64,000 nt of DNA from an uncultured Chloroflexota bacterium (GCA_913043205.1 CAJWLF010000013.1:4787-68786), one strand, 5' to 3'; shown: positions 41,719-60,646, numbered from the stretch's first letter. A program made the numbers and translations. The notes: generated by a model not told the origin, from the sequence alone.

Positions 41719-44700
41719 TCAGAACTTCCGCTTTGTTGAGGGATCGTCATAAAGCATCTCGGCATAGGTAGCCACATCTACTTCAAATTCGCCATCATGA
41801 CGTTCCGGTCTTTCGGCAACTACCGTGTCGGTAGTGATAATTGCACAAGCAACACTAACCGCTGCTGCAAGAGCATGCTGGGAAACTAGTAGCGGGTCAA
41901 TTATTCCAGATTCAAACAAGTCTATAAATTTTCCAGTCACGGAATCATACCCATTCCAGAAAGACCCAAAGTCGATACGAGCCAGAATCCCACCAGGGTC
42001 TTCCCCTGCATTAACTACAATCGATTTAAATGGATCGTCGAGCGCTTTCCGCATTGCAGACACTCCAGCACCGACATCGCTCTCTTCCGGCAATTCCGGA
42101 AGAGAGCGGGCCGCGTGTAAATAGGCAGCTCCACCACCAGGCACCACTCCACTTGTCAATGCTGAACGGACTGACTTAACAGCATCATCGGCAAGCTGTA
42201 ACCGTCTCTTGACTTCTAATTGTGTTGCAGCTCCCACGTATATCGTTCCAATTCTCCCAGACAACCGCTGCAACTGTTTTTCAGCTATTTTCGTAGCATT
42301 CGACCTGTCTCTTTCCCGAACTCGTTCCACAATCTGCAGCTTGCGTCTCTCAAGTCCATCTTCCCGATCGGCTCCATTTACAATTACAGCAGATTTCATG
42401 TCGACCACTACGCGCTGTGCTTTCCCTAATACATTGACATCGATAGAGTTCCAGGGACGCCCAATTGCGTCACCAATAACCTGACCTCCCGTCACTGCGG
42501 CAACATCCATCAAAACTTCACTGCCAGACAAATCTAACGAATTGGTTACTACTGGACACACACGCGGACCATCCTGTCGCCAATTAGCTCTCAAAGCTCC
42601 GAGTGTTTCGGTTGGGAAGTCCTCAGCAATTAAAACAACATCAGTAACGATATTTGCGTTGGTAAAAACATCAAACAGTAATGCCAAATCTCTTATCAGT
42701 ACAGAGCCTAAAATCGCAACGATATATGGGGATTCGATGACAGTTTGCGAACGATCAGCATCATCCACAAAGAATGCATCTGTCAAACTTGCCTCGGCCT
42801 GAAATCCATTATTAATTCTTATAGTTGTTTCGACACCTCTACCTTGCCGAACATCTATCGCTCCATCATCTCCAGTATGGTCCACGATCTGTGTCACCGC
42901 AGTAGCGATTTCGGAATCACGAGAAGAAACTCGAGCCACCCTCTCGACTTCTGCCTTACTGGAAATCTCGCGCGCATGCTCTCTCAAATAAGCATCTACA
43001 TAGTTTGCAGCCAATCTAATCCCACTGCCAATTGACATCGGGCTTCTACCGGCAGCAATCTGCATGTCAGCCTCACGAACAATAGCTTGAGCGAGAACCA
43101 TAGCCGTGGTTGTACCGTCACCAGCCATTGACTCTGTATGCAAAGCCGCCTCGCGCAAAAGCTGGGCTCCCAGATCTTCTATAGGGTCAGGTAATTCTAT
43201 TTCTCGAGCAACATCGGCCCCGTCTCTGGTTACTGCCGGACAATAACTTCCTGCTAAACCTCTACGTTCCAGCACCACGCTCATACCGGTCGGCCCATGT
43301 GTAACCTTGACAACATCCGCCAATTTATCTACCCCGCTATGCAGACTCCTACGACCATTGTCACCAAAAAGAATCTCAGTTGTACGACGCTCAGGCTGAG
43401 ATTGGTTTACTTCATTACCCATGCCGGGAATTTCAATATCCTCTATCTTTTCCGTGTGCCGAATGGCAGTCTCAGTGGTGAGTATCGACACAGCCGTACT
43501 GGTAGCACTACGCAGAGAACTAGAGACCACGTCAAGTGGGTCTAAAACACCAGCTTCGAATACATTTACACAACTCCTCGATAGCGCATCAAACCCGTAC
43601 TCGATATCATCTTCAGATTCAATTTTTTCAACAATCAGTTGACCATCTAACCCCGCGTTAATGGCAATTTGCTCAGTGGGCCGCTGAAGCGCTTCCCGCA
43701 CAATACCTACACCAGTAGCCTGATCCCCATGAACATCTAACACATCTAATGCCGATCTAGCCCATAGTAGAGATCGTCCACCACCAGGAAGAACACCATT
43801 GTCATACGCCGCTCGACAGGCAGAAACAGCATTTTCAGTCCTTTGACACAGTTCAGTCCTCTCGGTTCCAGTAGAGGCCGAGACTTCAATGGTGATCATC
43901 TTGCCTGAAAGACGCGTAATACGATTTTTGATCAGATCAGCCTGAGTGTGATTCCTAGTTCGATCAGCTTCAGATTGCATAGCCGATATACGACTGGCAA
44001 TTCGAGCAGGATCACCCTTTGGACCTACAATCAAAAATTCTTTTGGGCCAACCACGACACGCTCTGCCCTTCCGAATACTTCAGAATTTACATTGTCCCA
44101 AGACCGACCAAATTCATCAGACACAAACGTGCCTCCAGTCACTATGGCTAAGTCCTCGCATACTTCGCTACGACTGAGCCCAGCAACTGGGTTGCTTGCA
44201 ATAACTAATTGAAGATTTTCATTCTTGTTTGCCGCAAGAACGTCGGATAATGCAACCTCATCCACAGAATCGCACATAACAAAAACGGACGTCACATCAT
44301 TGTCAACTAATGAATCCAACAAGCGTCTAATTTCACCAAATTCAACTATTCGCCGATCGGTTATAAGTATGTATGGATTGTCTAATTCGGCTTTTCCATA
44401 AACCGTGTTAACGAAGGCTGAAGATACATAGCCTTCGTCCATACTTACCCCAGTAGATCGCCTCAACTGAGACTGCAACCCACGCCCTTCTTCAACCACA
44501 ACACCACCATTTGGCTGTGTTTCAAGAATAGCTTTTGCTGCTAGTTCTCCAAGTACATTGCTATTAGCGGAAACAGTGCCAACCTGAGTAAGCACGTTCT
44601 CATTTCGAGCGTCGACAGATATTCTCTTTAGTTCTTCAAGAACAACACCACTAGCCAACTCAATCCCACGACGCAACATCATGGGATTTGCACCTGCTGC

Positions 44701-45087
44701 TATATTTTTGAGTCCCGCATGCAACATTTCTTGCGCAAGGATGGTTGCAGACGTGGTGCCATCCCCAGCCCACCATGACGCCTCAGACGCTGCCTCAATA
44801 ATCAATTTGGCTCCCATATTTTCGTACTCATCCCGCAAATTAATCGACCGAGCAATAGATATCCCATCATTTGTTATCACGGGACGAAAGGGAGGCGTTT
44901 GCAGCAACACATTCTGGCATAGAGGACCAAGCGTAATTTTTGTTGTGTCAGCAACAGCATCAACTCCTCGCCCCAAGGCAAAACGGGCCTCGGAATCAAA
45001 AATCATTTCAGATTTTGATGAGCGAACCGGCTTAGGGCGAGATGGAGTTCCTGAACTTCCCAGAATGAATGCTTTTGAGTCTTCCAT
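41719..45087 (-). CDS. Tandem-fused double chaperonin: two complete GroEL/Cpn60-family modules in one 1122-aa polypeptide
   Basis: Module 1 spans about aa 28-548. It reads FDSEARFALGRGVDAVADTTKITLGP ... AGDGTTSATILAQEML ... TENAVSACRAAYDNGVLPGGG ... VLDPLDVVSSSLRSATSTAVSILTTETAI. Module 2 spans about aa 571-1095. It reads ILFGDNGRRSLHSGVDKLADVVKVTHGP ... AGDGTTTAMVLAQAIV ... ADDAVKSVRSALTSGVVPGGG ... IIDPLLVSQHALAAAVSVACAIITTDTVV. Each module is colinear with E. coli GroEL over its full length. The linker is about 22 aa with no stop. The true start may alternatively be the ATG at 45006 (MIFDSEAR...). Confidence 0.8.
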   Translation of the reverse strand: MEDSKAFILGSSGTPSRPKPVRSSKSEMIFDSEARFALGRGVDAVADTTKITLGPLCQNVLLQTPPFRPVITNDGISIARSINLRDEYENMGAKLIIEAASEASWWAGDGTTSATILAQEMLHAGLKNIAAGANPMMLRRGIELASGVVLEELKRISVDARNENVLTQVGTVSANSNVLGELAAKAILETQPNGGVVVEEGRGLQSQLRRSTGVSMDEGYVSSAFVNTVYGKAELDNPYILITDRRIVEFGEIRRLLDSLVDNDVTSVFVMCDSVDEVALSDVLAANKNENLQLVIASNPVAGLSRSEVCEDLAIVTGGTFVSDEFGRSWDNVNSEVFGRAERVVVGPKEFLIVGPKGDPARIASRISAMQSEADRTRNHTQADLIKNRITRLSGKMITIEVSASTGTERTELCQRTENAVSACRAAYDNGVLPGGGRSLLWARSALDVLDVHGDQATGVGIVREALQRPTEQIAINAGLDGQLIVEKIESEDDIEYGFDALSRSCVNVFEAGVLDPLDVVSSSLRSATSTAVSILTTETAIRHTEKIEDIEIPGMGNEVNQSQPERRTTEILFGDNGRRSLHSGVDKLADVVKVTHGPTGMSVVLERRGLAGSYCPAVTRDGADVAREIELPDPIEDLGAQLLREAALHTESMAGDGTTTAMVLAQAIVREADMQIAAGRSPMSIGSGIRLAANYVDAYLREHAREISSKAEVERVARVSSRDSEIATAVTQIVDHTGDDGAIDVRQGRGVETTIRINNGFQAEASLTDAFFVDDADRSQTVIESPYIVAILGSVLIRDLALLFDVFTNANIVTDVVLIAEDFPTETLGALRANWRQDGPRVCPVVTNSLDLSGSEVLMDVAAVTGGQVIGDAIGRPWNSIDVNVLGKAQRVVVDMKSAVIVNGADREDGLERRKLQIVERVRERDRSNATKIAEKQLQRLSGRIGTIYVGAATQLEVKRRLQLADDAVKSVRSALTSGVVPGGGAAYLHAARSLPELPEESDVGAGVSAMRKALDDPFKSIVVNAGEDPGGILARIDFGSFWNGYDSVTGKFIDLFESGIIDPLLVSQHALAAAVSVACAIITTDTVVAERPERHDGEFEVDVATYAEMLYDDPSTKRKF

Positions 45088-45276
45088 AACGAAATTTATG
45101 CCATAACATGTGTTGCCATCGCTTAATTATTACCGACATTTCCCAAGACGGTAGAAGATTCTTATTGGATAAGCCCATTGTACGAATATCTGCACATAAT
45201 TATGCATATCGACTAGTATCATCCAATACATGCCAAAACAACGGTCGTTAATCCTCATCCTAGTAGGTATCACACA

Positions 45277-46938
45277 GTGCGCGATCCATCCTTAGAACCC
45301 ATAACAACAAGACGGCTTGGCCGAGCCAAATCCATTTATCACGATATGGACGCCTTACTGCCACTAAAACGAGGTGCAGATTACGTCGCTGATACGATAA
45401 AGCTATCATTAGGACCGACTACAACCACCGTGCTAATCGATAACGTCGGCGAATTACCGATCTCTGCCCAAGATGGAACCTCCATCGCAAATTCGATCAA
45501 AGCACCTAATAGATTAGAAGATATCGGAAGCCATCTTATGCGCGATGGTATCTCGACAATGTCAAAGAATATTAGAGATGGGACCTCCACGGCCGCCACC
45601 CTAGCACAAAGTATCATCGAGCACGGTGTTGCCCAAATTGCAACTGGAACGAATGCCATGATTTTGACCCGAGGGATAGAGGCTGCGTCTAGAGCAGTCG
45701 AACGGGAAATTAGGAGTTTTTCGCAACCAGCAGACACAAGCGACACACTCATATCAGTAGCAACCACTTGCAGCGAAAATGCTGCTCTCGGAGAACGAAT
45801 CGCAGAGATGATTGCTCACTTAGGGCCCGAAGCCAACATAGGTGTTAGGGCTGAGCCTGTAGTTGGAGTGCATCCTTTCTACAGTCCTGGCATGCAAATG
45901 AATCGCGGATGGTATTCACCTCATCTGACAACAAACGAAGAAGGAACCGAAGCAATACTAGAAGACGCATTAGTGTTCATTACTAGCTCAGTCATACATG
46001 GATCTGAAACAATGGGGCTACTGCTTTCGAAACTAGCTAGTTACGAAAGGCCCTTTTTGATTATTGCCGACGACATAGATGAGGCAGCTCTTAAAGTATT
46101 GGTCGTCAACAAAACAAACGGGGCAATAAATGCTTTCGCTATCCAGGCACCTAGTTACGGGGATCATAAACTAGCCATTCTTGAAGATATAGCAGTATTT
46201 ACCGGTGGGAAAGTAGTTAATAACGTTACTATGGCATTATCCAATATTGGCTCCGAATTAGGCGACAATCTAGGATTGGCAACCCGTGTTGTAGCCAATA
46301 GACGCGAATCCGTGATTACTACCGGTGGTGGCAGCGAAGAACAAATAAAATCACGTATGGACCATATTTCAACAGAGCTCGAATCAATCACAGACGAAGA
46401 AGGGAGAGCAATGCTAAGACAGCGTTGGGGAACCCTAGGAAAGGGGGTGGGGCAAATCATTTTCGGTGCCCCTACCGAACCTGAGCGTAGGGAACTTCGC
46501 CGAACCCTTGAAAAAACAATTCAGGTTACAAGAGCAGGGTTGAGAGAAGGAGTTGTGGCAGGTGGAGGAATCGCGTTTCTAACTGCAGCAAATACATTGG
46601 CAACTACTAAATGGGCAGACGATGAGCAAGCGGGAGCAATATGCCTAACAAGTTCGCTAAAAAGACCTACAGAACAGATAGCCATCAATAGCGGACACGC
46701 GGGATCTACAATCATCTCCCAAATATATGATCTTGATCCTGGGTACGGATATGACGCTATTACAGGGAATTATGTAAACATGAAGGAAGCTGGAATAATA
46801 GATGCAACTTCAGTGACTATTCATGCTTTGCGAATTGCATGCAGTATTGCAGTCAATTTATTAAAAACCAACGTGGCTATCCATTACGCGCCGAGTGCAA
46901 AATGGCCAAAAGCCCCGGAGCGCCCTGTCAGCAATTGA
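45277..46938 (+). CDS. Highly divergent GroEL/Cpn60-like protein (553 aa), divergently transcribed from the double chaperonin
   Basis: Contains ADTIKLSLGP ... DGTSTAATLAQSII ... TRAGLREGVVAGGGIAFL ... GIIDATSVTIHALRIACSIAVNLL, colinear with GroEL. The conserved GPKGRN loop is replaced by GPTTTT. The position equivalent to GroEL D398 is K (EKTIQ). Confidence 0.75.
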   Translation: MRDPSLEPITTRRLGRAKSIYHDMDALLPLKRGADYVADTIKLSLGPTTTTVLIDNVGELPISAQDGTSIANSIKAPNRLEDIGSHLMRDGISTMSKNIRDGTSTAATLAQSIIEHGVAQIATGTNAMILTRGIEAASRAVEREIRSFSQPADTSDTLISVATTCSENAALGERIAEMIAHLGPEANIGVRAEPVVGVHPFYSPGMQMNRGWYSPHLTTNEEGTEAILEDALVFITSSVIHGSETMGLLLSKLASYERPFLIIADDIDEAALKVLVVNKTNGAINAFAIQAPSYGDHKLAILEDIAVFTGGKVVNNVTMALSNIGSELGDNLGLATRVVANRRESVITTGGGSEEQIKSRMDHISTELESITDEEGRAMLRQRWGTLGKGVGQIIFGAPTEPERRELRRTLEKTIQVTRAGLREGVVAGGGIAFLTAANTLATTKWADDEQAGAICLTSSLKRPTEQIAINSGHAGSTIISQIYDLDPGYGYDAITGNYVNMKEAGIIDATSVTIHALRIACSIAVNLLKTNVAIHYAPSAKWPKAPERPVSN

Positions 46939-47144
46939 GTAGATTCTTAAACTAAATTCGCAAAGTGTTATCTCCGTATCCTAGAACCAAAACGGTACAT
47001 TCCGATTGGCTAATGGCTAATTTGGTAATTATTCAATTCGAACTGATGAAGACTAATATAGAACTTTTCATTAGAATAATGGTGCAGTCTTAATTATTGA
47101 CATTACACATCGCAACGTGTCGGGCAGTTGTAGTCACTTAAGTC

Positions 47145-49532: not shown

Positions 49533-49556
49533 TCCTATCAAGCAAGTTAAGCTTTA

Positions 49557-50970: not shown

Positions 50971-50987
50971 TTTAATTCCCTTCCTAT

Positions 50988-52145: not shown

Positions 52146-52196
52146 GCCTATTCTCCTTACTAAGTGGCATAATTCTAGATCCTCCTCCTTCCATAC

Positions 52197-52961
52197 CTAA
52201 CTGACTTTAAGACCTCCATCAACGACGATGGTGTCACCGGTAACAAAACTCGAAGCGTCTGACGAAAGAAAAATTGCCGCACCCACTAGATCATCCGGTT
52301 GCCCTAAACGACGCAAGGGTGTTTGATCTATGGCGGCTTGCCTTACATCATCATCATCAAGAATGGGCTTAGTCATAGACGTCTCAATAAATCCAGGAGC
52401 TATCAAGTTAACGCGAACATTATGTGAAGACCACTCCAACGAAAGAGATCTAGCCAAGGCAGATACAGCCCCTTTGGTAGCACCGTACAAATTTCTATTC
52501 ATTAAAGCCATTTCAGCTACAACGGAACTAATGAGGACAATCGAGCCGCCGCCAGAACTGATCATTCTGCGTCCGGCTTCTTGACAGCAAAACACCAACC
52601 CACGCACATTAGTATCGAAAACTTCATCATAGTTATCTTCAGATACATCAAGAAATGGAACCCGCTGCGATATACCGGCAGAAGCAATCAGGATATCAAG
52701 TTGTCCAAAAGCCTCGTCAAACTGCTTGTAGGCATTCCGAATTTCATCCGCATTTTTCACATCAGTAGGGATACCTAAAGTTTTTCGACCGAATCCAGAA
52801 ATTGTTTTTGTTACCTGATCTAAATCAGATTTCGTGCGTGATACAAGTGCAACATCGGCTCCAGCCTCTGCCAGACCCAGGGCTATCGATCGACCTATCC
52901 CTCGTCCAGCCCCTGTGATCAGGGCCGTCTTTCCTTGAAGGTCAAACATTCTTGCAGCCAA
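52197..52961 (-). CDS. Short-chain dehydrogenase/reductase (SDR)
   Basis: Contains TGAGRGIGRSIA and the catalytic YxxxK (YGATKGA). Confidence 0.85.
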   Translation of the reverse strand: MAARMFDLQGKTALITGAGRGIGRSIALGLAEAGADVALVSRTKSDLDQVTKTISGFGRKTLGIPTDVKNADEIRNAYKQFDEAFGQLDILIASAGISQRVPFLDVSEDNYDEVFDTNVRGLVFCCQEAGRRMISSGGGSIVLISSVVAEMALMNRNLYGATKGAVSALARSLSLEWSSHNVRVNLIAPGFIETSMTKPILDDDDVRQAAIDQTPLRRLGQPDDLVGAAIFLSSDASSFVTGDTIVVDGGLKVS

Positions 52962-52989
52962 TTAGAATCCTCCGTTCTTTACATGTAAT

Positions 52990-53721
52990 CTAATCATCAG
53001 TTTCATTTGCCTGACCAGAAAGCAATGAGCATAGAATTTCACTTTCAAAGCTTGAGTTGGCAGCTACTGAATCAGGATTGTTGAGTGATAAGGCAGATTT
53101 CAAATACGTGACTGCGGGCGGACTGTGATTTGCCAACCTCTCCACAATAGTCTTGACTGAATATTCAATGTCATCAGACTCAAACACGTTGACCACCAAT
53201 CCACAATCGTTAGCCTTAATAGACCCAATTCGGTCTCCAAGAAACAGCATGGCAACAGCCTGGCTGTAATTGATAGCACGTGTTAATAATGGAACCCCAC
53301 CCCAACCTGGAATCCAACCATTTGTTATTTCCGGGAAACCAAACTGAGCATCTTTTCGAGCAATTCTCATATCACAACTAAGGGCCAATTCCAGCCCGCC
53401 TCCCAGGCAATAGCCGTGAATACTAGCTACAGAAATTTGAGGTAAATTGCGAATCTTGTCGAGCACTCTGTGGCCGGTAGTCGTCCATCTATCTAATCCA
53501 TTGGAATCTAATTCACGTACAACTTTTAGATCAGCCCCTGCGCAAAAAGCTCGATCTCCGTTGCCAGCAAAAAGTACTACTCTATAACTGTCATCAACAC
53601 TGATACGGTCGACAGTTTCTTCAATCTGAGACAGCATCTCCCAATTGATAGCATTTAGCACGTCTGGGCGATTCAATGTGATACGCAGAACACCTTCACT
53701 AAGTTCGTCTGTATATATCAA
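52990..53721 (-). CDS. Enoyl-CoA hydratase/isomerase (crotonase fold)
   Basis: Contains FCAGADLK and the later GLGGGLELAL ... catalytic region. Confidence 0.85.
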   Translation of the reverse strand: MIYTDELSEGVLRITLNRPDVLNAINWEMLSQIEETVDRISVDDSYRVVLFAGNGDRAFCAGADLKVVRELDSNGLDRWTTTGHRVLDKIRNLPQISVASIHGYCLGGGLELALSCDMRIARKDAQFGFPEITNGWIPGWGGVPLLTRAINYSQAVAMLFLGDRIGSIKANDCGLVVNVFESDDIEYSVKTIVERLANHSPPAVTYLKSALSLNNPDSVAANSSFESEILCSLLSGQANETDD

Positions 53722-53751
53722 TTCAGATCTCCCACATTCACTTAAGCGTCG

Positions 53752-55272
53752 CTATTCCAAGAACAAGGATGTTGCCATCAAATCGAAGTCGTCAACAATA
53801 GGTTTGAATTCCATTAATCCCAATACATCTTTTTCGAGTTGCACCCCTGGAGCCAGCTCGATCAACTTTATGCCGTCATCTGTTAATTCAAAAACTGCAC
53901 GCTCAGAAATAAATAACACTTGCTGGCCACGACGCAGTGCCTCTTTCCCACTGAACGTAATATGCTCAACTTTTTTCACAAATTTTGCAGCCTTACCAAC
54001 ATCATGAACCTTTACATTTCCGTCCGTCACTTCAACATTTGCCTTTACCCCAAACGTTCCACAAAACACTATCTTTCGCGCACTCTGAGTGATATCGATA
54101 AACCCACCACAACCAGCAAGAATTCTTCCAAAGCGACTTACATTCACATTCCCTTCGACATCAGCCTGAGCCATTCCTAAAAAGGCTATGTCTAGACCAC
54201 CTCCTTGGTAAAAATCGAATTGATAGGGAGCATCTAGTATCGCCGTAGGGTTCGACATGGCTCCAAAGGCCACACCTGTCACTGGCCACCCACCCCATGC
54301 ACCTTGCTCAGTAGTAAAAGTTACCTTCTCCATCATCCCTATATCCTCTGCAGCACTAGGGACTCCATCCGACATGCCAAACCCTATGTTTACCATCTGA
54401 CCCTCTTCAAGTTCTTGAGCAGCTCTCCTGGTAATAAGCAGCCTTTGATCCAGTTCCTGATCGGGATAGTCTGGGTCTTGCAAACGTTCTACTCCGCAAT
54501 AATAGGGATTGAACTGCTCAACTAGTGTTTGCGGCTGCGATTCATCTACTACAATCGCTCCAATCACATGCCCGGGCACTTTTACCTGCCGAGGATCTAT
54601 CGTCCTAGCATCCACCACCCGAGCAACCTGAGCTATAGAGCTTCCACCATGATTGCTAGCAGCCGTCGCCTGAGACAACATTTCAAACCAGCCCGCCTCA
54701 TGTTCAAGACTGATATTACCTAATTGGTCCGCAGTCGTACCGCGCACTATTGCTACGTCAGGAGGAGGAATCTTGTAGTAAAGATGTTCCTCTCCATCCA
54801 TTTCTACATATTTCACCAAGTCTTCTTTGGTTGCAGTGTTTAGCTTGCCACCATCAATACGAGGATCAACGAATGTTCCAAGTCCTATACGACTCAACAT
54901 CCCAGGATGACCACCGGCAACCCGACGCATTAATTGACTAAGTACCCCCTGTGGAAAGTTATAAGCCTCTACATCACCTGACAGGGCCAGACTAGCTATA
55001 GCGGGCGACATACCATAATGCCCCAGAATTACCCTCTTAATCATCCCTGACAAGGCTAACCTATCAGTGCCTGCCCCGGCTTGATCGCCCAGTCCGCTGG
55101 TATGTACGATAGTCAGATCAGATGGGTGCCCAGTGTTTTCATATCGTCTAGCAAGAGCTGCAATTGTAAAGTCAGGGACATTTATAGCCCCGTTACCACC
55201 AAGATATACAACATCACCATCTTGGATCACCTGTATAGCATCGTCAGCCGGACGTATCTTTGATTCAAACAT
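53752..55272 (-). CDS. Family I CoA-transferase with fused subunits, YdiF-like acyl-CoA:acetate/short-chain-acid CoA-transferase
   Basis: Contains PQGVLSQLMRRVAGGHPGMLSRIGLGTFVDPRIDGGKLNTATKEDLVKYVEMDGEEHLYYK. This is near-colinear with E. coli YdiF (PQGVLTQ ... GIGTFVDPRQQGGKLNEVTKEDLIKLVEFDNKEYLYYK). Confidence 0.8.
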   Translation of the reverse strand: MFESKIRPADDAIQVIQDGDVVYLGGNGAINVPDFTIAALARRYENTGHPSDLTIVHTSGLGDQAGAGTDRLALSGMIKRVILGHYGMSPAIASLALSGDVEAYNFPQGVLSQLMRRVAGGHPGMLSRIGLGTFVDPRIDGGKLNTATKEDLVKYVEMDGEEHLYYKIPPPDVAIVRGTTADQLGNISLEHEAGWFEMLSQATAASNHGGSSIAQVARVVDARTIDPRQVKVPGHVIGAIVVDESQPQTLVEQFNPYYCGVERLQDPDYPDQELDQRLLITRRAAQELEEGQMVNIGFGMSDGVPSAAEDIGMMEKVTFTTEQGAWGGWPVTGVAFGAMSNPTAILDAPYQFDFYQGGGLDIAFLGMAQADVEGNVNVSRFGRILAGCGGFIDITQSARKIVFCGTFGVKANVEVTDGNVKVHDVGKAAKFVKKVEHITFSGKEALRRGQQVLFISERAVFELTDDGIKLIELAPGVQLEKDVLGLMEFKPIVDDFDLMATSLFLE

Positions 55273-55300
55273 CAGGACACATCCATCAGAGTACTAAATA

Positions 55301-56182
55301 CTATCCTTTGATACCGGTTAGGGTAATTCCTTCAATAAATCTACGCTGCCCAAAGAAGAACATGATCACCATTGGAAGCGTAAACATAGTGGAGCATGCC
55401 ATAAGCAAGTCCCACCTAGCACCATATAGAGTAAAGAATGTTCGCAAACCTATTGAAAGGGTATATCTGTCGTTATCACGAAGATATATGAGTGGACCAA
55501 TAAAATCATTCCACGTGAATATCACTTCAAACAGAACAAGAGTCGTAATGGCCGGCTTCATTAATGGCAGGACAACACTCCAGAAAATTTGTAGTTCATT
55601 CGCTCCATCCACACGCGCAGCATCTGAAAGATCCATAGGTATCGTTCTGTAAAACTGCCTAAGCAAGAAAATATAAAAGGCATTGCCAAAAAACGAAGGA
55701 ACGATTAACGGCAGTAATGTATTGAGCCAGCCAATTTGGTGAAACGCTATGTACATAGGAATCATGCGTACCTGAAAAGGCAGCATCATAGTGGCCAACA
55801 CCAGTATAAAAACCTGATCACGATACGGCCAGTTCAATCTGGCAAAACCATAGGCGATAAATGTATTACTAATCAATGCTCCGATTGTCGACCAAACAAC
55901 AAGAGCAAAGGAATTACCCAGATACGTCCAAAACGGTATCACCTCTAATACATCAGGGAAATTCATCCAGCGCGGGTTCACTGGCCACAGGTCTGGCGGA
56001 ACCTTAAATATTTCGGATTGCTCCTTTAAGGAACTCATAAACAACCAGTACAAGGGCAATGCAAATATGATGCCAAAGCCAGCAAGAAACAGGTGTACAC
56101 CGAACCTACCAAGAAGCTCCCTGCCTCTATCGGCTAAGCTTTTAGAGCGCCTAGTAACAACTACCGTTGACGTACTATTCAT
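55301..56182 (-). CDS. Carbohydrate ABC transporter permease (MalG/UgpE-like)
   Basis: The EAA-like motif is DAARVDGANELQIFWSVVLP. The protein has 6 TM helices. Confidence 0.85.
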   Translation of the reverse strand: MNSTSTVVVTRRSKSLADRGRELLGRFGVHLFLAGFGIIFALPLYWLFMSSLKEQSEIFKVPPDLWPVNPRWMNFPDVLEVIPFWTYLGNSFALVVWSTIGALISNTFIAYGFARLNWPYRDQVFILVLATMMLPFQVRMIPMYIAFHQIGWLNTLLPLIVPSFFGNAFYIFLLRQFYRTIPMDLSDAARVDGANELQIFWSVVLPLMKPAITTLVLFEVIFTWNDFIGPLIYLRDNDRYTLSIGLRTFFTLYGARWDLLMACSTMFTLPMVIMFFFGQRRFIEGITLTGIKG

Positions 56183-57056
56183 TTTCGTAATACACCCATC
56201 GTCGAGTACCTCTAAACACCACCAGGGTAAAGAACATTATGATCATAAACAGCAACCATGCTAAGGCTGAGGCATATCCCATACGTAGATTTTCAAATGC
56301 ATGGAAATATAAATTCAGTCCGTAGAATAACGACGCATTAGCGGGGCCACCTTGGGTCATAATGTATGACTCGGCAAATGCTTGAAACGAAAATATCAAT
56401 CCGACTACCACATTGAAAAGAATCACCGGGGTAAGAAGGGGTAAAGTTATATGTCGAAACACCGTTATAGGACCGGCCCCATCTATACGCGCCGCCTCAT
56501 AAAGATGCCTGGGAATCTCTTGTAATCCAGCGAGGAATATAATGATCGCCCTACCACTCCCCCATATCGCCATAATCACCAATGCTGGCTTTACCCACGT
56601 AGTAGACCCAAGCCAATTGGGCCCTACTAATCCCATAGCCTCCAACAGGTAGTTCACAATACCGCGTTGAGGATTCAAAACCCATATCCAGATAAGGGAC
56701 GAGGCCACCGTAGGTACAAGCACTGGGATAAAATAGATGAGCCTATAAGTAGCACGTGCCACAATTTTTCGATTGAGCAATGCTGCCAAAAATATATCTA
56801 CAATAGTTCCAAAAATAACTAGTGTTATTGCAAAATAAAATGTGTTGCCAATCGACACCCAAAACACAATATCTTTGAAAAACATGAACTCATAGTTGTA
56901 TAGGCCTATAAATTCAGCGTCCCTAACTATGTTGTAATTCGTAAATGAATACCATAGCGATGCGAAAAAAGGATATGCAGTGAACAGAAGAAAACCTAAC
57001 ACCCAGGGACCAACGAAAATCCCCGCCCACATCAAATTACTTCGATTTGTATTCAT
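56175..57056 (-). CDS. Carbohydrate ABC transporter permease (MalF/UgpA-like)
   Basis: Contains EAARIDGAGPITVFRHITLP. It overlaps the downstream permease by 8 nt. Confidence 0.85.
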   Translation of the reverse strand: MNTNRSNLMWAGIFVGPWVLGFLLFTAYPFFASLWYSFTNYNIVRDAEFIGLYNYEFMFFKDIVFWVSIGNTFYFAITLVIFGTIVDIFLAALLNRKIVARATYRLIYFIPVLVPTVASSLIWIWVLNPQRGIVNYLLEAMGLVGPNWLGSTTWVKPALVIMAIWGSGRAIIIFLAGLQEIPRHLYEAARIDGAGPITVFRHITLPLLTPVILFNVVVGLIFSFQAFAESYIMTQGGPANASLFYGLNLYFHAFENLRMGYASALAWLLFMIIMFFTLVVFRGTRRWVYYENE

Positions 57057-57262
57057 CTAAAACCAGCACCTTAGCCAATCGACCATAAAAACTTCGCCAA
57101 TTACTTATAGAACTATCTTCATTGGCAATGTAATCACATAGCCCTATCAAAGCATCACCATAAAACCTTGGGGATAGATATAAACTTGCAATTGGGCCGG
57201 AGACTCCATCGCTGGAGACCTCCGACCCAATAAATTAAGCATTTATTGAAGCAGGGAGAAAA

Positions 57263-58750
57263 TTACTTCGCTTTAGCATCAATGTCGGATTGAGTAGCCT
57301 TAGTGATGTCTGCAAGAGCAGCATCGACCGTCTTCTCACCGAGATATATCTGATCCTGAGCTGTACCAAGGGCTTTACGGAATACACCGTAGGAACCAAA
57401 CGGAGGTAGCTTCCATGTATTCGGGAAGATATCCGTCAAAGCTACACCATTGTACGGGGAAGCCTTGTGGTAGAACGGAGTGTCAAGACTCTTTCTGATA
57501 GCCGGAACTGAGTCAGCAACAGTCTTACGCTCCATCTGCTTAGGACTAGTTAGGAATGAACTCCACGCCCATCCACCCTCGGCGTTCTTAGCACCGTTAG
57601 GGATGATGTACACGTTGGTGTTCAAGTCACTCGTTCGATATTTTTTCGAGCCAGAAGTCGGAATGGCTTGCCATTGCTTATTCTGCTTCGGTGCTTGCTT
57701 ATCGATATCTGAAAACCACCAGCTGGACAAACCAGCCATACCTACAAGGTTGGTGTACAGCGGGCCATCAGAAGTGAAACGCCCAAAGCCGCCAGTACCG
57801 TATGTAGATTTCCAAGCAACTAATTCAGAACCTTTGTGGGTATCTGCGTAGCCCTTGTGCCAGTTCATCAAAGTCTTCATGTCGTCGGTAGAGGCATTAA
57901 ATTTGCCCTTACCGTCGTACACGTCTTCACCGCCCCACACGGCTGCCCATGTGGTAGGTGCTGAGAACATACTGGGAGAAAAACCAAGCGTCTTAATCTT
58001 GCTTCCAGATTTCTTGTACAACTTGGCTCCGACTGCCTCAGCTTCCGCCAAAGTCTTAAAGTTTGCTGGGACAGTAACGCCCATTTCTTTAGCCAAATCT
58101 AAGTTTGTGTACAACAAAGCCACAATTCCGGATAGAGGCACGGCATGCCGCTTACCCTGGAATATGGTCTGTGCCACTGGGCCTGCCAAAAAGTCTTCAG
58201 GCTTCCAAGTTTTCGCATCGCGCTTTACCCACTTGTCTATAGCAGTTGTAGCGCCAGCTTCGGCGTGACCACCAAGTGCATGGTACCAGTTTCGAACAGC
58301 GTCCGGAGGGTTACCAGCAGCAACGGATGTCAGCAATTTAGGGTTAATCTGACCCCATGGCTGAATGACGTGCTTCACTTCATGGCTCGGGTTCCCAGCA
58401 TTGAAAATGTCAATGATGGATCCGTATACACCACCCACTTTACCGTGGGTTTTTGGGTCAAATCCTGACCACAGCTCAACGGTTTGTCGGTTCAACTGAC
58501 TTGCAGCCACTTCAACCTTCTTAACCTTCTCGACGACGATGGCGTCAGTTCGAGCTGCGTTCACACCCAATTGCTTCTCGACCTCGACGATCTTCTCGAC
58601 CTCGACGATCTTTTCTACAGGAACCTCAACGATCTTTTCAACCGTTTTGGTTTCACCGCAACCCGCAAGGGACGCCGCGCCTACAACACCAAAAGTGCCG
58701 AGTAATCCGCCTTTGACGACCTTACGTCTGCTGACGTTTCCGAGTTTCAT
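57263..58750 (-). CDS. ABC transporter substrate-binding lipoprotein (family 1 solute-binding protein) with an RR-type lipoprotein signal and a repetitive EKIVEV linker
   Basis: The N-terminus reads SRRKVVKGGLLG ... SLAGCGE (lipobox). It is followed by VEKIVEVPVEKIVEVEKIVEVEKQ and then an SBP fold. Confidence 0.8.
   Translation of the reverse strand: MKLGNVSRRKVVKGGLLGTFGVVGAASLAGCGETKTVEKIVEVPVEKIVEVEKIVEVEKQLGVNAARTDAIVVEKVKKVEVAASQLNRQTVELWSGFDPKTHGKVGGVYGSIIDIFNAGNPSHEVKHVIQPWGQINPKLLTSVAAGNPPDAVRNWYHALGGHAEAGATTAIDKWVKRDAKTWKPEDFLAGPVAQTIFQGKRHAVPLSGIVALLYTNLDLAKEMGVTVPANFKTLAEAEAVGAKLYKKSGSKIKTLGFSPSMFSAPTTWAAVWGGEDVYDGKGKFNASTDDMKTLMNWHKGYADTHKGSELVAWKSTYGTGGFGRFTSDGPLYTNLVGMAGLSSWWFSDIDKQAPKQNKQWQAIPTSGSKKYRTSDLNTNVYIIPNGAKNAEGGWAWSSFLTSPKQMERKTVADSVPAIRKSLDTPFYHKASPYNGVALTDIFPNTWKLPPFGSYGVFRKALGTAQDQIYLGEKTVDAALADITKATQSDIDAKAK
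58573..58635 (-). repeat. In-frame tandem 18-nt repeat (cttctcgacctcgacgat, 2 exact copies plus 1 diverged copy) encoding the (EKIVEV)n linker of the substrate-binding protein
   Basis: The direct repeat is visible at 58573-58590 and 58591-58608, with a diverged copy to about 58635. Confidence 0.5.
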
Positions 58751-59032: not shown

Positions 59033-60646
59033 CTAGTGAGACTCATGATCATTCTCAGGAACCTCTGCAACCAAAGCACCTATAGTCAGCACCATGCCCG
59101 CTATAGACCCAGCATTCTCCAAAACGGACCGAACAACCTTCGCAGGATCAATTATTGCTACATCATCGTCCAACATGTCGACATATTGCTCAGATATAAC
59201 ATCAAACCCTATCGTCTTGCTGCCTTCTTCAACCTGCCTCCGTTTTACGTCTCCCACTACAACATCCCCATTAAACCCAGCATTACGTGCAATTTGCTTG
59301 ATGGGTTCCTCCAGTGCAGCAATCACCGATCGATACCCGGTACTTTCATCACCATCTAACAAATCGGAGTCAAGACCTTCAGCCGCTACCAGTAGTGTAA
59401 CTCCGCCGCCGGGAACTATACCTTCTTCAACAGCTGCCCTGGTGGCAGCTACAGCGTCTTCCACTCTGAAAGCCTTTTCTCTCACCTCAGTCTCCGTTGC
59501 TCCACCAACTCTCAATATAGCCACACCTCCAGATAATTTACCAAGGCGGCTCTCTAACCTTTCCCGGTCATGCTGCAATGGGGTCTCTTTAATCTGTGAA
59601 GCTACCTGGTTGACTCTAAACGCTACTTGTTCGTCAGAACCGTGCCCGCCGACCAAAGTAGCCGACTCCCGATCCACTACCACTCTTCGACAACGACCCA
59701 AATCATCAATCGTCACAGAAACCAAGTCCCTTCCTACTCGGTCCGAAATCACAACCCCTCCAGTCAGCGCGGCAATATCTTCAAGAACCTCGTCCCTAGC
59801 ATCACCCCATTCGGGGGATTCAATTGCAACACAGCCAATGTTGCCTTGCATCTTGTTCATCACCAATGTGGCCATAGCCTCGTCAGCTATAGCATCACCC
59901 ATCACTAGCAAGGAATCAGCCCCGTTAGCTTTCACCACCTCCAATACCGGCAGAATATCGGCAACCGAGGATATTTGTGCATCACTGATAAGAAGGAAAC
60001 AATCATCCAATTCAGCCTGCATACGCTCTTCGCTAGTAATGAAATAGGGAGACAAGAATCCACTGTCGATACGAATTCCATCAACGTATTCGATTTCCAG
60101 GTTCAATCCAGTGGATTCCTCAACGCTGACAGCTCCATTAGGGCCAACCTTGTCTATAGCTTCCCCGACTAAGTCTCCTATTGCCTGTTCGGCAGCAGAA
60201 ATAGTGGCTACACTCTTAATTTCCTCCAAACTTTTAACAGGTACTGCCTGATCCTCGACAAGCTTAATAGCATCCGTTATCGCCCTCTGCACACCAAGCC
60301 TGATGAGCATAGGATTAGCACCAGCTGCAATGTTTCTAAGACCCTGCTGCAGAATTGCCTGAGCCATAACCACAGACGTGGTTGTACCATCCCCTGCCAC
60401 TATATTCGTCTGATTGGCCACCTCCTTGAAAACCTGTGCTCCCATATCCTCAAAAACATCCTCAAGTTCTACATGACGGGCTACTGTCACACCATCGTGT
60501 GTAATAGTTGGTGCAGCATAACGCCGACCCAGGGCAACGTTTCGCCCCTTAGGACCAAGTGTAGATTTGACCGCTTCGGCTAATTTATCGATACCATTCA
60601 TCGCAAGGCGCCGAGCATCTTGCCCATGAATAATCTCTTTAGGCAT
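59033..60646 (-). CDS. groEL: Chaperonin GroEL (Cpn60) with canonical ATPase residues, no GGM tail, and no adjacent groES
   Basis: Contains TLGPKGRNVAL, ITHDGVTVARHVELED, AGDGTTTSVVMAQAIL and VEDAVAATRAAVEEGIVPGGGVTLL, all near-identical to consensus. The C-terminus ends EVPENDHESH. The upstream neighbour is the glycoside hydrolase gene; there is no Cpn10 ORF. Confidence 0.9.
   Translation of the reverse strand: MPKEIIHGQDARRLAMNGIDKLAEAVKSTLGPKGRNVALGRRYAAPTITHDGVTVARHVELEDVFEDMGAQVFKEVANQTNIVAGDGTTTSVVMAQAILQQGLRNIAAGANPMLIRLGVQRAITDAIKLVEDQAVPVKSLEEIKSVATISAAEQAIGDLVGEAIDKVGPNGAVSVEESTGLNLEIEYVDGIRIDSGFLSPYFITSEERMQAELDDCFLLISDAQISSVADILPVLEVVKANGADSLLVMGDAIADEAMATLVMNKMQGNIGCVAIESPEWGDARDEVLEDIAALTGGVVISDRVGRDLVSVTIDDLGRCRRVVVDRESATLVGGHGSDEQVAFRVNQVASQIKETPLQHDRERLESRLGKLSGGVAILRVGGATETEVREKAFRVEDAVAATRAAVEEGIVPGGGVTLLVAAEGLDSDLLDGDESTGYRSVIAALEEPIKQIARNAGFNGDVVVGDVKRRQVEEGSKTIGFDVISEQYVDMLDDDVAIIDPAKVVRSVLENAGSIAGMVLTIGALVAEVPENDHESH

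What the first reader, a model, noticed from the sequence alone, without database searches (positions are those of the whole stretch)
41719..60646. Four Cpn60 modules within 19 kb, none with groES and none with a CIRCE operator
The window holds the double chaperonin, the divergent paralog and a fully canonical groEL at 59033-60646. None is preceded by a Cpn10/groES-sized ORF. I could not find the HrcA operator CIRCE (TTAGCACTC-N9-GAGTGCTAA) in any of the three upstream regions: 45088-45276 shared by the divergent pair, and 60647-60818. Housekeeping groESL is normally heat-shock regulated. A co-chaperonin-less, CIRCE-less set embedded among catabolic genes points to a dedicated, non-heat-shock role. 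Candidates are a client-specific folding or encapsulation machine, or a moonlighting scaffold.
Basis: partly seen in the sequence, partly recalled or inferred. Interest (0 to 1): 0.8.

Follow-up and report, generated by a model that had tools for sequence, protein, structure and literature searches.

The report
Fused chaperonin set beside a radical enzyme
A marine bacterium carries three unusual GroEL-type chaperonin genes, one of them a natural fusion of two chaperonins, and they always sit next to the same glycyl-radical enzyme, so they are probably a private folding machine for that enzyme and not general heat-shock proteins.

Summary
The region contains a 1122-aa tandem double Cpn60 (41719-45087, -), a divergent 553-aa Cpn60 (45277-46938, +) and a third 537-aa GroEL (59033-60646, -). 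I found no groES and no CIRCE anywhere in the 64-kb window. CIRCE was found at 36 of 68 ordinary groE loci used as a control.

One correction: the third copy is not "fully canonical". It is 45-48% identical to ordinary GroELs, lacks the Gly-Met tail, and barely passes the GroEL equivalog cut-off.

All four modules belong to one island that is conserved in at least four lineages of marine Dehalococcoidia-like bacteria. Its order is GroEL3, ABC transporter, CoA-transferase, hydratase, dehydrogenases, then converging Rieske and glycyl-radical enzyme (GRE), then Single, then the divergently transcribed Double.

The Double's N half, its C half and the Single each form a separate clade with 100% bootstrap support. 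Their ATP sites decay in a conserved pattern. They evolve two to three times faster than their neighbours but remain under purifying selection (dN/dS about 0.17-0.20).

An exhaustive search of 1.84 billion representative proteins found only about four tandem Cpn60 clusters.

Best reading: a dedicated hetero-oligomeric chaperonin for the GRE-Rieske enzyme. This rests on gene linkage and has not been demonstrated.

The parts
43405..45087 (-). N-terminal Cpn60 module of the tandem double chaperonin (aa 1-561 of the 1122-aa ORF 41719-45087).
   Evidence: It is a full-length GroEL match (TIGR02348 448 bits, below the 582 cut-off). GDGTTS is kept, but D398 is Asn and K51 is Asn in all five GRE-linked orthologues. 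The module forms a clade with 100% bootstrap support. dN/dS is 0.17.
41719..43386 (-). C-terminal Cpn60 module of the double (aa 568-1122), with a conserved non-GGM tail of the form VDxxTYxxMLxDDPS.
   Evidence: TIGR02348 gives 390 bits. D52, D87, D398 and GGG are all kept, and L31 is His in all orthologues. The clade has 100% bootstrap support. dN/dS is 0.195. In the AF2 model, residues 539-569 (the disordered linker region, which overlaps the end of the N-module segment) and both termini have low confidence, while both modules fold as GroEL.
45088..45276 (.). Intergenic region of 189 bp shared by the divergently transcribed Double and Single genes.
   Evidence: It contains no CIRCE, HAIR or CtsR site. 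No operator is conserved between lineages. The sigma-70-type scan placed no promoter-like site in this region.
45277..46938 (+). Single divergent Cpn60 (553 aa) with a degenerate nucleotide site and a conserved tail of the form AIHYAPSxWWPxxPERP.
   Evidence: TIGR02348 gives 388 bits, below the cut-off. G86 is Arg, the TTT motif is degenerate, and D398 is Lys, Ala or Thr. The family has only 5 clusters at 90% identity, after which scores drop from 535 to 372 bits. It always lies next to a Double (L084/L085 show the adjacent truncated gene; L094). dN/dS is 0.17.
47145..49532 (+). Glycyl radical enzyme of the dehydratase/eliminase type (795 aa). This is the proposed client.
   Evidence: It carries the PFL-like and Gly_radical domains. 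The best solved relative is the B12-independent glycerol dehydratase 1r8w (404 bits), followed by HypD 6vxc. The Cys loop VGCVEN and the Gly loop AR[LM]YGWSQY are conserved. It is 69-90% identical across lineages.
49557..49973 (+). Small Rieske [2Fe-2S] protein (138 aa), which starts 24 nt after the GRE stop codon.
   Evidence: It matches Pfam Rieske. The CPH...CPWH ligand motifs are conserved in all lineages. It is always immediately downstream of the GRE.
50041..58750 (-). Conserved catabolic and transport operon that converges on the GRE-Rieske pair. It encodes a DHDPS-family enzyme, Fe-ADH, SDR, enoyl-CoA hydratase, CoA-transferase, two ABC permeases and a solute-binding protein.
   Evidence: Domain assignments come from Pfam. 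The same genes occur in the same order in lineages B, C and D.
59033..60646 (-). GroEL3, a near-canonical but divergent GroEL paralog with no Gly-Met tail, placed at the head of the transport and catabolic operon.
   Evidence: TIGR02348 gives 604 bits against a cut-off of 582. All ATP-site residues and most apical residues are kept. It is 45-48% identical to canonical GroELs. Orthologues at 71-72% identity occupy the same position in lineage B (L093 overlaps L080 at 100% nucleotide identity) and in lineage C/D (L086 overlaps L084 at 95% and L090 at 90%).
60647..60818 (.). Upstream region of GroEL3 (172 bp).
   Evidence: It has no CIRCE, no groES-sized ORF and no Rfam element.

Best explanation
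The Double (two fused Cpn60 modules) and the Single are three ancient, co-inherited Cpn60 paralogs. I propose that they assemble into one hetero-oligomeric group I chaperonin dedicated to the neighbouring 88-kDa glycyl radical enzyme and its Rieske partner.

**Proposed mechanism (inferred):**
- The C module of the Double keeps a complete ATPase site and drives the cycle.
- The N module (D398N) binds ATP but hydrolyses it slowly.
- The Single, whose P-loop is degenerate, acts as a structural or client-binding subunit.
- The conserved non-GGM C-terminal tails and the module-specific apical grooves give client specificity.
- The client is larger than the roughly 60 kDa a GroEL/GroES cage encloses, and no dedicated groES is present. 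The machine therefore probably works by bind-and-release or holdase cycles on an open ring, not by encapsulation under a lid.

GroEL3 is a more ordinary GroEL-like subunit encoded at the head of the same island. It either joins the complex or serves the other island enzymes. A housekeeping groESL with a Gly-Met tail is expected elsewhere in the genome.

**Shown:** the architecture, the residue patterns, the synteny, the phylogeny, purifying selection and the rarity of the fusion.

**Inferred:** co-assembly, the identity of the client, and the mechanism.
For: 1. **Synteny.** Every Double cluster of this type (P0001-P0005) and every Single cluster (P0084, P0114-P0117) whose contig reaches that far lies beside the GRE-Rieske pair. 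This holds across four lineages whose Cpn60s are only 45-53% identical. The flank beyond the Double's 3' end differs between them: DAO, integrase/UvrB, primase, or a B12 radical-SAM gene.
2. **Lineage D insertion.** The only block inserted between the Single and the GRE is another GRE with a true GRE activase (TIGR02494, 331 bits) and a LacI regulator.
3. **Old three-module set.** The N, C and Single clades are each monophyletic with 100% bootstrap support.
4. **Graded ATP-site decay.** The C module is intact, the N module has D398N, and the Single has RDG with a degenerate TTT motif. The pattern is lineage-conserved, as expected for fixed positions in a hetero-oligomer.
5. **The genes are functional.** dN/dS is 0.17-0.20. 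Both modules of the Double fold as GroEL in the model, with TM-score up to 0.84 to GroES-bound GroEL chains.
6. **Conserved unusual tails** replace the GGM repeats. The literature suggests C-terminal tails may take part in client recognition or selection, and reports that at least one GGM-tailed paralog is always retained (PMC11978752).
7. **No groES and no CIRCE** in the window, and no groES in the related loci scanned (L005-L008, L010).
Against: - The case rests on gene linkage. There are no expression, interaction or folding data.
- The Cpn60s evolve much faster than the GRE (45-53% versus 69-90% identity). That pattern could also mean relaxed constraint or a function unrelated to a highly conserved client.
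- A more distant family member (P0352, 41% identity, same tail motif) keeps D398 in both halves, and its context is unknown.
- An independent tandem-Cpn60 family (P0006-P0009) sits in an unrelated context next to CopCD, so fusion alone does not imply a GRE client.
- AF2 gave no confident relative placement of the two halves (pTM 0.45).
- The client could be any or all of the island's proteins.
- I could not confirm that a housekeeping groESL exists elsewhere in this genome.
Confidence: 0.5

Rival explanations
1. The chaperonins serve the whole island and not the GRE specifically. Double, Single and GroEL3 would form a portable folding kit that travels with a catabolic island of about 19-25 kb and helps several of its enzymes fold in whichever host carries it.
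For: GroEL3 heads the transporter and catabolic operon at the far end of the island in lineages A, B and C/D. Integrase and primase genes flank the Double in lineages C and D. Divergence between strains is mosaic: dS is 0.01-0.05 in the catabolic genes against about 0.3 in the Cpn60s and DAO, which shows that parts of the island recombine.
Against: The Double-Single pair is always nearest to GRE genes, including in lineage D where extra GRE genes are inserted. The other island enzymes (SDR, ECH, Fe-ADH, DHDPS) belong to families that normally fold without dedicated chaperonins (established knowledge). The window shows no compositional sign of recent transfer.
Confidence: 0.17
2. The Cpn60 complex is an ATP-driven activation, reactivation or protection factor for the radical enzyme, not a folding machine. 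It might open the GRE so the glycyl-radical loop can reach its activase, or shelter the oxygen-labile radical. This would be analogous to the Hsp70-like reactivases of B12-dependent diol and glycerol dehydratases.
For: The enzyme is a radical dehydratase-type GRE with intact Gly and Cys loops. The gene calls come from Tara station 125 surface and mixed-layer samples, which are oxygenated water (plus knowledge of Tara sample naming). A Rieske electron carrier is tightly coupled to the GRE. Radical enzymes with dedicated chaperone-like reactivases encoded next to them are an established precedent (knowledge).
Against: No chaperonin is known to perform such a role. The window lineage has no activase nearby. 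Oxygen cleaves the GRE backbone irreversibly, which a chaperonin cannot repair (knowledge). No sequence feature here distinguishes this role from folding.
Confidence: 0.13
3. These are ordinary surplus GroEL paralogs for general or stress proteostasis, as in many bacteria with several groEL copies. On this view their position next to the GRE has no functional meaning.
For: Extra groES-less groEL copies without GGM tails are common in Actinobacteria, Cyanobacteria and Chlamydiae (PMC5904260 and PMC11978752). GroEL3 keeps all catalytic residues and most apical residues.
Against: The neighbourhood is conserved across lineages in which the Cpn60s are only about 50% identical while the outer flanks differ. 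The ATP sites of two of the three fast-evolving modules are degenerate. All three modules score far below the GroEL equivalog cut-off. The family is confined to a handful of clusters.
Confidence: 0.1
4. The Double and Single have lost chaperone activity and serve as a structural scaffold or have another moonlighting role.
For: They evolve fast (45-53% identity against 65-92% for most neighbours). The Single has lost the P-loop and the N module has lost D398. Inter-ring contact residues R452 and E461 are replaced in the N module and the Single.
Against: The C module keeps every ATP-site residue in all five orthologues. All modules keep the GGG motif and full three-domain length. dN/dS of 0.17-0.20 shows continuing constraint across whole modules.
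Confidence: 0.07

Closest known systems
Client- or pathway-linked extra GroEL paralogs in bacteria, such as the rhizobial groESL operon in the nif/symbiosis island regulated with nitrogen-fixation genes, Myxococcus GroEL2 and mycobacterial GroEL1
   Same: These are additional group I chaperonin copies with non-GGM tails, embedded in or linked to a specific functional gene set, and not the housekeeping copy (PMC5904260 and PMC11978752).
   Different: The known examples are single-module proteins, usually at least 50-60% identical to the housekeeping GroEL. The rhizobial ones come with their own groES. Here there are three co-inherited, highly divergent modules (31-37% identity to canonical GroEL), two of them fused, with graded ATP-site loss and no groES.
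Hetero-oligomeric chaperonins: chloroplast Cpn60 alpha/beta and eukaryotic CCT/TRiC
   Same: Several paralogous subunits are kept together. In CCT only some subunits hydrolyse ATP efficiently (knowledge). The pattern here of one intact site, one D398N site and one degenerate site resembles that division of labour.
   Different: No bacterial example of obligate hetero-oligomeric GroEL is established, and the review states that bacterial paralogs prefer homo-oligomers. Co-assembly here is inferred. There is no built-in lid: the apical domains carry no insertion, and all four modules score as GroEL and not as thermosome.
Chloroplast Cpn20, a tandem fusion of two Cpn10 co-chaperonin units
   Same: It is a natural head-to-tail fusion of two units of a ring-forming chaperonin-system protein.
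   Different: In Cpn20 the fusion is in the co-chaperonin. Here it is in the 60-kDa chaperonin itself. I found no description of a natural tandem Cpn60, and an exhaustive search found only about four such clusters among 1.84 billion representatives. Covalently linked GroEL has been made artificially (knowledge).
Chaperone-like reactivases and accessory ATPases of radical or complex enzymes, such as diol/glycerol dehydratase reactivase DdrAB/GdrAB, EutA and BssE of benzylsuccinate synthase operons
   Same: An ATPase of a chaperone family is encoded beside a radical enzyme and presumed to be dedicated to it. This comparison concerns how the system may work, not family membership, and rests on knowledge.
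   Different: Those proteins belong to the Hsp70-like or AAA+/MoxR families, not Cpn60. No reactivation chemistry is known for glycyl radical enzymes.
Co-chaperonin-independent GroEL homologues, such as phage EL gp146
   Same: It is a group I-type chaperonin encoded without a groES partner (knowledge).
   Different: gp146 is a viral, single-module, homo-oligomeric protein. The window here is chromosomal, with pyrG, purA and the pyr operon. Independence from the host GroES has not been tested here.

Membership tests
Group I chaperonin Cpn60/GroEL (PF00118; TIGR02348) | Full-length three-domain Cpn60 fold (equatorial, intermediate and apical domains). | tested here: met
   All four modules align end to end with E. 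coli GroEL (reference sequence verified 548/548 against PDB 4pkn). Pfam and NCBIfam hits cover the whole model. The AF2 model of the Double matches GroEL chains with TM-score 0.77-0.84.
Group I chaperonin Cpn60/GroEL (PF00118; TIGR02348) | Score at or above the curated GroEL equivalog cut-off (TIGR02348, 582.1 bits). | tested here: not met
   The Double's N module scores 447.7, its C module 390.2 and the Single 387.8, all below the cut-off. Only GroEL3 passes, at 604.3. All four pass the looser subfamily model NF009487 (cut-off 352).
Group I chaperonin Cpn60/GroEL (PF00118; TIGR02348) | Complete ATP-binding and hydrolysis site (T30-P33, D52, G86-T91, D398, G414-G416). | tested here: inconclusive
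   The site is complete in GroEL3 and, apart from L31H, in the Double's C module. The N module has D398N and K51N. The Single has G86R, a degenerate 89-91 motif and D398 replaced by Lys, Ala or Thr. These patterns are conserved in all orthologues.
Group I chaperonin Cpn60/GroEL (PF00118; TIGR02348) | Adjacent groES (Cpn10) co-chaperonin gene. | tested here: not met
   The GroES HMM found nothing in the window (best E-value 7.6) or in the related loci scanned (L005-L008, L010). The control recovered groES at 15 of 19 canonical loci.
Group I chaperonin Cpn60/GroEL (PF00118; TIGR02348) | Gly-Met-rich C-terminal tail of the housekeeping paralog. | tested here: not met
   None of the four modules has it. 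The Double and the Single carry their own conserved tails. The literature reports that bacteria with several chaperonins always keep one GGM-tailed copy, so another copy is expected elsewhere in the genome.
Group I chaperonin Cpn60/GroEL (PF00118; TIGR02348) | Assembly into heptameric rings or a double-ring tetradecamer. | not testable with these tools
   The AF2 single-chain model has pTM 0.45 and a disordered linker region at residues 539-569, so it gives no inter-module geometry. Inter-ring residues R452 and E461 are replaced in the N module and the Single.
HrcA-CIRCE heat-shock regulon | CIRCE operator (TTAGCACTC-N9-GAGTGCTAA) upstream of the chaperonin gene. | tested here: not met
   There were no matches within 3 mismatches in the 64-kb window. 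The exact pattern is present at 36 of 68 canonical control loci and in none of the related loci held at that point, L001-L010 and L079-L088.
Group II / III chaperonins (thermosome, CCT, bacterial thermosome-like) | Built-in apical lid (helical protrusion) and best match to thermosome or CCT models. | tested here: not met
   Thermosome and CCT models score 34-147 bits against 388-905 bits for GroEL models. The apical domains carry no insertion beyond 6 aa. The best structural matches are GroEL and Hsp60.
Glycyl radical enzymes (PFL-like; the neighbouring gene) | PFL-like barrel plus Gly_radical domain, with the radical Gly loop and the catalytic Cys loop. | tested here: met
   PF02901 gives 501 bits and PF01228 gives 44 bits. 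The Cys loop VGCVEN aligns with GCVE of glycerol dehydratase. The Gly loop AR[LM]YGWS aligns with RVAGYS: the Gly is kept, and Val-Ala is replaced by Leu/Met-Tyr.
Glycyl radical enzymes (PFL-like; the neighbouring gene) | Cognate radical-SAM activating enzyme encoded nearby. | tested here: not met
   The Pfam scans of the larger ORFs of the window (roughly 120 aa or more at 1-38 kb, 80 aa or more at 38-64 kb) found no radical-SAM protein. Lineage D has a true activase (TIGR02494, 331 bits) beside a second GRE inside the island.
Pathway-dedicated chaperonin paralogs (functional class, not a sequence family) | Conserved co-location with the presumed client genes across diverged genomes. | tested here: met
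   Four lineages, and roughly twenty contigs from independent samples, keep the arrangement Double, Single, GRE, Rieske.
Pathway-dedicated chaperonin paralogs (functional class, not a sequence family) | Co-regulation with the client, physical binding to it, and dependence of the client on the chaperonin. | not testable with these tools
   No expression or biochemical data are available, and no shared operator was found.

The most novel reading that the evidence does not exclude
The Double and the Single build a chaperonin ring with fixed subunit positions, something not known in bacteria. One possibility is three Doubles plus one Single to fill a seven-membered ring, which would explain why a lone subunit is always inherited with the fused pair. 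Another is an eight- or nine-membered enlarged ring. This GroES-less machine would act as an ATP-gated chamber or platform that matures, activates or shields an oxygen-labile glycyl radical enzyme, letting a Dehalococcoidia-type (SAR202-like) bacterium use radical chemistry in oxygenated surface seawater.
Probability: 0.12. Interest if true: 0.92.

Novelty: new variant of a known kind. Interest (0 to 1): 0.72.

Why it matters
- Group I chaperonins are the textbook example of a homo-oligomeric, generalist folding cage that evolves extremely slowly. This system combines a natural tandem-fused GroEL, a co-inherited third paralog, graded ATP-site loss and fast evolution, all tied to one enzyme.
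- If the linkage reflects function, this would be a bacterial counterpart of the subunit specialisation seen in CCT/TRiC. It would also be a tractable three-gene system for studying how chaperonin hetero-oligomers and client specificity evolve.
- It points to an uncharacterised glycyl radical enzyme with a Rieske partner in abundant marine Chloroflexota from surface waters, where oxygen-sensitive radical enzymes are not expected.
- Practically, co-expressing the chaperonin genes may be necessary to produce this enzyme in active form.

Tried and rejected
- **Genome scan.** The scan of GTDB species genomes with the Double returned only canonical groESL loci through one generic motif. The source species was not found, so I could not search its genome for the housekeeping groESL, hrcA or an activase. 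Those loci were reused as controls for groES and CIRCE.
- **Taxonomy.** It could be inferred only indirectly, from GroEL3's best named hits: a 'Dehalococcoidia bacterium' MAG at 72% identity, then Chloroflexota GroELs at 52-57%.
- **Shared operator.** The intergenic regions of the four lineages are too diverged to align. A motif shared by two window regions (CTTAATTATT...GACAT) occurs no more often than in shuffled sequence. The sigma-70 scan found fewer promoter-like sites than shuffles gave and none in the intergenic regions. There were no HAIR or CtsR sites near the genes and no Rfam hits.
- **Structure.** AF2 on the Double confirmed two GroEL folds but gave no reliable inter-module geometry (pTM 0.45). 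The side-by-side versus stacked question stays open.
- **Metagenome scan.** The scan with the GRE alignment gave only four loci, two of them new (L090, L092). They agree with the synteny, but the sample is small.
- **Literature.** Searches found nothing on natural tandem GroEL, GRE-linked chaperonins or SAR202 chaperonins.
- **Rejected: fusion as a frameshift or assembly artefact.** The identical ORF is on 10 contigs and the architecture is kept at 46-50% identity.
- **Rejected: group II/III chaperonin.** All four modules score as GroEL and there is no lid insertion.
- **Rejected: pseudogenes.** dN/dS is about 0.17-0.20.
- **Rejected: phage or plasmid origin.** The window carries chromosomal housekeeping genes.

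Full report
**1. What is there**

The ORF map and domain scans confirm the finding's coordinates.
- 41719-45087(-) is a single 1122-aa ORF holding two complete Cpn60 modules. I call it the Double.
- 45277-46938(+) is a 553-aa Cpn60, the Single. It is transcribed divergently from a shared 189-bp spacer.
- 59033-60646(-) is a 537-aa GroEL, here GroEL3.

Between them lie:
- a PFL-like glycyl radical enzyme (GRE, 47145-49532, +);
- a 138-aa Rieske protein starting 24 nt after the GRE stop codon;
- on the minus strand, converging on these two, a DHDPS-family enzyme, Fe-ADH, SDR, enoyl-CoA hydratase, CoA-transferase, two ABC permeases and a solute-binding protein, with GroEL3 at the head of that string.

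The rest of the window is chromosomal. It carries pyrG, purA and a Gram-positive-type pyrR-pyrB-pyrC-carA-carB-pyrK operon.

**2. Absence of groES and CIRCE, with controls**

- An HMM built from 16 GroES sequences found nothing in the 1043 stop-to-stop segments of at least 30 aa in the window (best E-value 7.6), nor in the related loci scanned (L005-L008, L010).
- The same HMM recovered groES directly upstream of groEL at 15 of 19 canonical loci.
- CIRCE has no match within three mismatches anywhere in the window.
It is present in none of the related loci held at that point, L001-L010 and L079-L088.
- HAIR and CtsR operators and Rfam families are also absent near the genes.

**3. How canonical are the modules?**

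I aligned all four modules to E. coli GroEL.

| Module | Identity to E. coli GroEL | TIGR02348 score, cut-off 582.1 |
|---|---|---|
| Double, N half | 34% | 448 |
| Double, C half | 31% | 390 |
| Single | 34% | 388 |
| GroEL3 | 46% | 604 |

- Nineteen canonical GroELs from eight or more phyla are 56-64% identical to E. coli and 52-95% identical to each other. GroEL3 is only 45-48% identical to any of them.
- None of the four modules has the Gly-Met tail.
The literature reports that bacteria with several chaperonins always keep one GGM-tailed copy (PMC11978752). A housekeeping groESL is therefore expected elsewhere in this genome, but I could not check this.

**4. Residue patterns**

Across the five orthologous Doubles (P0001-P0005) and four Singles, the patterns are conserved.
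- **C module:** keeps D52, G86-T91, D398 and GGG. L31 is always His.
- **N module:** keeps GDGTT(S/T), but D398 is always Asn and K51 is Asn. In E. coli, D398A allows ATP binding but nearly abolishes hydrolysis (established knowledge).
- **Single:** G86 is Arg, the 89-91 motif is degenerate, and D398 is Lys, Ala or Thr.
- **Apical segments:** each module type has its own conserved sequences, for example GF(I/L)SSAFVN, GLxSPFF and NRGWYSP(R/H)L.
- **C-terminal tails:** each has its own conserved tail. The Double ends in VDxxTYxxMLxDDPS and the Single in AIHYAPSxWWPxxPERP.
- **Inter-ring salt-bridge pair R452/E461:** replaced in the N module and the Single.
- **GroEL3:** keeps the ATP-site residues and most apical residues.

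**5. Phylogeny and rarity**

- In a neighbour-joining tree with 200 bootstraps, the N modules, the C modules and the Singles each form a clade with 100% support on a long branch. The three-module set therefore predates the split of the lineages.
- GroEL3 is sister to the canonical GroELs.
- A second family of Doubles (P0006-P0009, 33-35% identical) groups N with C. It is an independent fusion, keeps all catalytic residues, and in the one context examined (L005) lies next to copCD.
- HMMER read all 1.84 billion cluster representatives. Only four proteins stood above the generic GroEL score of about 330 bits:
  - P0003, which represents this family;
  - P0352, a partial double at 41% identity with the same tail motif but with D398 kept in both halves;
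  - P0353, which represents the independent family;
  - P0118, a partial double.
- The Single family has just five clusters at 90% identity. Scores then fall from 535 to 372 bits.
- I found no paper describing natural tandem Cpn60.

**6. Conserved neighbourhood**

This is the key result. Orthologues fall into four lineages:
- A: the window, L001-L004, L079 and L094;
- B: L008-L010, L080 and L093;
- C: L006, L084 and L085;
- D: L007, L081-L083, L090 and L092.

In all of them the order is Double, then the divergently transcribed Single, GRE and Rieske, then the converging DHDPS, Fe-ADH, SDR (missing in B), hydratase, CoA-transferase, permeases and solute-binding protein.

- The flank beyond the Double differs between lineages: a DAO-type oxidoreductase in A, an integrase fragment and UvrB in C, a primase in D, and a B12 radical-SAM gene in B.
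- Lineage D has a LacI regulator, a second GRE and a bona fide GRE activase (TIGR02494, 331 bits) inserted between the Single and the GRE.
- GroEL3 orthologues at 71-72% identity head the same operon in lineage B. L093 overlaps L080 at 100% nucleotide identity over 725 bp.
- The same holds in lineage C/D. L086, from an NCBI MAG labelled Dehalococcoidia bacterium, overlaps L084 at 95% and L090 at 90%.
- In those lineages a 661-665-aa beta-propeller protein follows GroEL3, and in L086-L088 (lineage C/D) an IclR regulator as well. The beta-propeller gene has no homologue in the window (tblastn), and the 282-bp GroEL3-to-solute-binding-protein spacer leaves no room for either gene.

All four Cpn60 modules are thus parts of one conserved island.

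**7. Evolutionary rates**

- Between lineage A and the others, most island enzymes are 54-92% identical and GroEL3 is 71-72%. The Double modules and the Single are only 45-53%. That is the reverse of the usual extreme conservation of GroEL.
- They are still under purifying selection. Against the 88-90% identical orthologues in L094, dN/dS is 0.17 (N module), 0.195 (C module) and 0.17 (Single), at dS of about 0.3.

**8. The enzyme**

- The GRE's best solved relatives are the B12-independent glycerol dehydratase (1r8w, 404 bits) and trans-4-hydroxyproline dehydratase (6vxc).
- The catalytic Cys loop (VGCVEN) and the radical Gly are conserved. The loop reads AR(L/M)YGWSQY in place of the usual RVxG(F/W/Y).
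- The Rieske ligand motifs CPH...CPWH are conserved.
- The Pfam scans of the larger ORFs of the window found no activase.
- Tara gene names place the organism in station 125 surface and mixed-layer samples. That water is oxygenated (my knowledge of the Tara naming scheme).

**9. Structure**

- AF2 on the Double, with a 9-sequence alignment, gave mean pLDDT 75 and pTM 0.45. Both halves are well folded. Residues 539-569 (the linker region) and both termini are disordered.
- Foldseek matched the model to GroEL and Hsp60 chains, best to GroES-bound conformers (TM-score 0.77-0.84).
- The relative arrangement of the two halves is undetermined.

**10. Interpretation**

- The best-supported reading (confidence about 0.5) is a dedicated hetero-oligomeric group I chaperonin for the GRE-Rieske enzyme.
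  - The C module would act as the motor.
  - The N module and the Single would be slow or non-hydrolysing, client-binding subunits.
  - No dedicated lid is present, which fits an 88-kDa client too large for encapsulation. Large GroEL clients such as aconitase are known to be handled without encapsulation (knowledge).
- The rivals, in order of weight, are:
  - a folding kit for the whole island;
  - an activation or oxygen-protection role;
  - ordinary surplus paralogs;
  - an inert scaffold.
- The closest known systems are pathway-linked GroEL paralogs such as the rhizobial nif-island groESL, the hetero-oligomeric Cpn60 alpha/beta and CCT, and, for the fusion itself, the tandem co-chaperonin Cpn20.
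- The system is a member of the Cpn60 superfamily. Three of the four modules fail the GroEL equivalog cut-off. All four lack the groES adjacency, GGM tail and CIRCE tested here, and two modules (the N half and the Single) also lack a complete ATP site.
- I rate it a new variant of a known kind.

Noticed in passing
window 40414-58750 compared with L079 and L094: Divergence between two close strains is mosaic. DHDPS, Fe-ADH and CoA-transferase have dS 0.01-0.02, the solute-binding protein 0.05 and the GRE 0.09. The Single, the Double and the flanking DAO gene have dS of about 0.3. Part of the island seems to have been exchanged recently by recombination.
   Followed up: partly
L005 10001-13246 (P0006); also P0007-P0009 and P0353: This is a second, independent family of tandem double Cpn60 proteins of about 1080 aa. 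Both halves keep all catalytic residues. In L005 it lies directly downstream of copC/copD and a MauE-like gene on a 1.9-Mb contig, with no GRE and no adjacent Single.
   Followed up: partly
window 35743-37158, 40414-41664, 62091-63002, 63017-63985: An aldehyde dehydrogenase, a D-amino-acid-dehydrogenase-type FAD enzyme, a DHDPS-family protein and a proline-racemase-family protein flank the island. Together they resemble the aerobic hydroxyproline degradation gene set (knowledge). One of the GRE's nearest solved relatives is the anaerobic hydroxyproline dehydratase HypD. The substrate was not established.
   Followed up: no
L007 3605-6906; L081 11808-15109; L090 6515-9813: Lineage D carries an extra LacI regulator, a second GRE (37% identical, with a standard RVFGF Gly loop) and a true GRE activase, all inserted between the Single and the conserved GRE. 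This shows these bacteria do run glycyl-radical chemistry.
   Followed up: partly
L086 6772-8769; L093 7025-9010; L080 12169-12751: In lineages B and C/D a 661-665-aa beta-propeller protein follows GroEL3. It matches the F510_1955 glycosylhydrolase family and is Ycf48-like, with repeated SxDxGxxW motifs. tblastn found no homologue in the window, and the 282-bp spacer between GroEL3 and the solute-binding protein gene leaves no room for it.
   Followed up: partly
L006 14355-14717; L007 15817-16902; L081 1-2896: In lineages C and D, mobile-element-type genes lie just beyond the 3' end of the Double: a phage-integrase fragment, and a DnaG-type zinc-ribbon/Toprim primase with a 608-aa neighbour. 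This suggests the Double marks an island border.
   Followed up: no
window 47145-49532, residues 765-773: The Gly-radical loop of this GRE clade reads AR(L/M)YGWSQY, with a bulky Tyr immediately before the radical Gly. The GRE aligned here has a small residue at that position (RVAGYS in glycerol dehydratase 1r8w). The variant is invariant in all seven clade members aligned.
   Followed up: partly
L054, L057, L051 (Candidatus Poribacteria) and L024: These canonical-type groEL loci have no detectable groES upstream. The three Poribacteria loci nevertheless carry an exact CIRCE just upstream of, or overlapping, the groEL start; L024 has none. This shows that a groES-less groEL can still be HrcA-regulated.
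   Followed up: no
window 60819-62018 and 39271-40410: Two sizeable ORFs flanking the island have no significant Pfam or NCBIfam family. One, of 399 aa, lies upstream of GroEL3. The other, of 379 aa, has a weak sub-threshold M23 peptidase hit and lies next to crcB. Neither had a tblastn match (E <= 1e-3) in the related loci searched. A 358-aa gene with a faint M23 hit occupies the corresponding position in L094, which was fetched after that search.
   Followed up: partly
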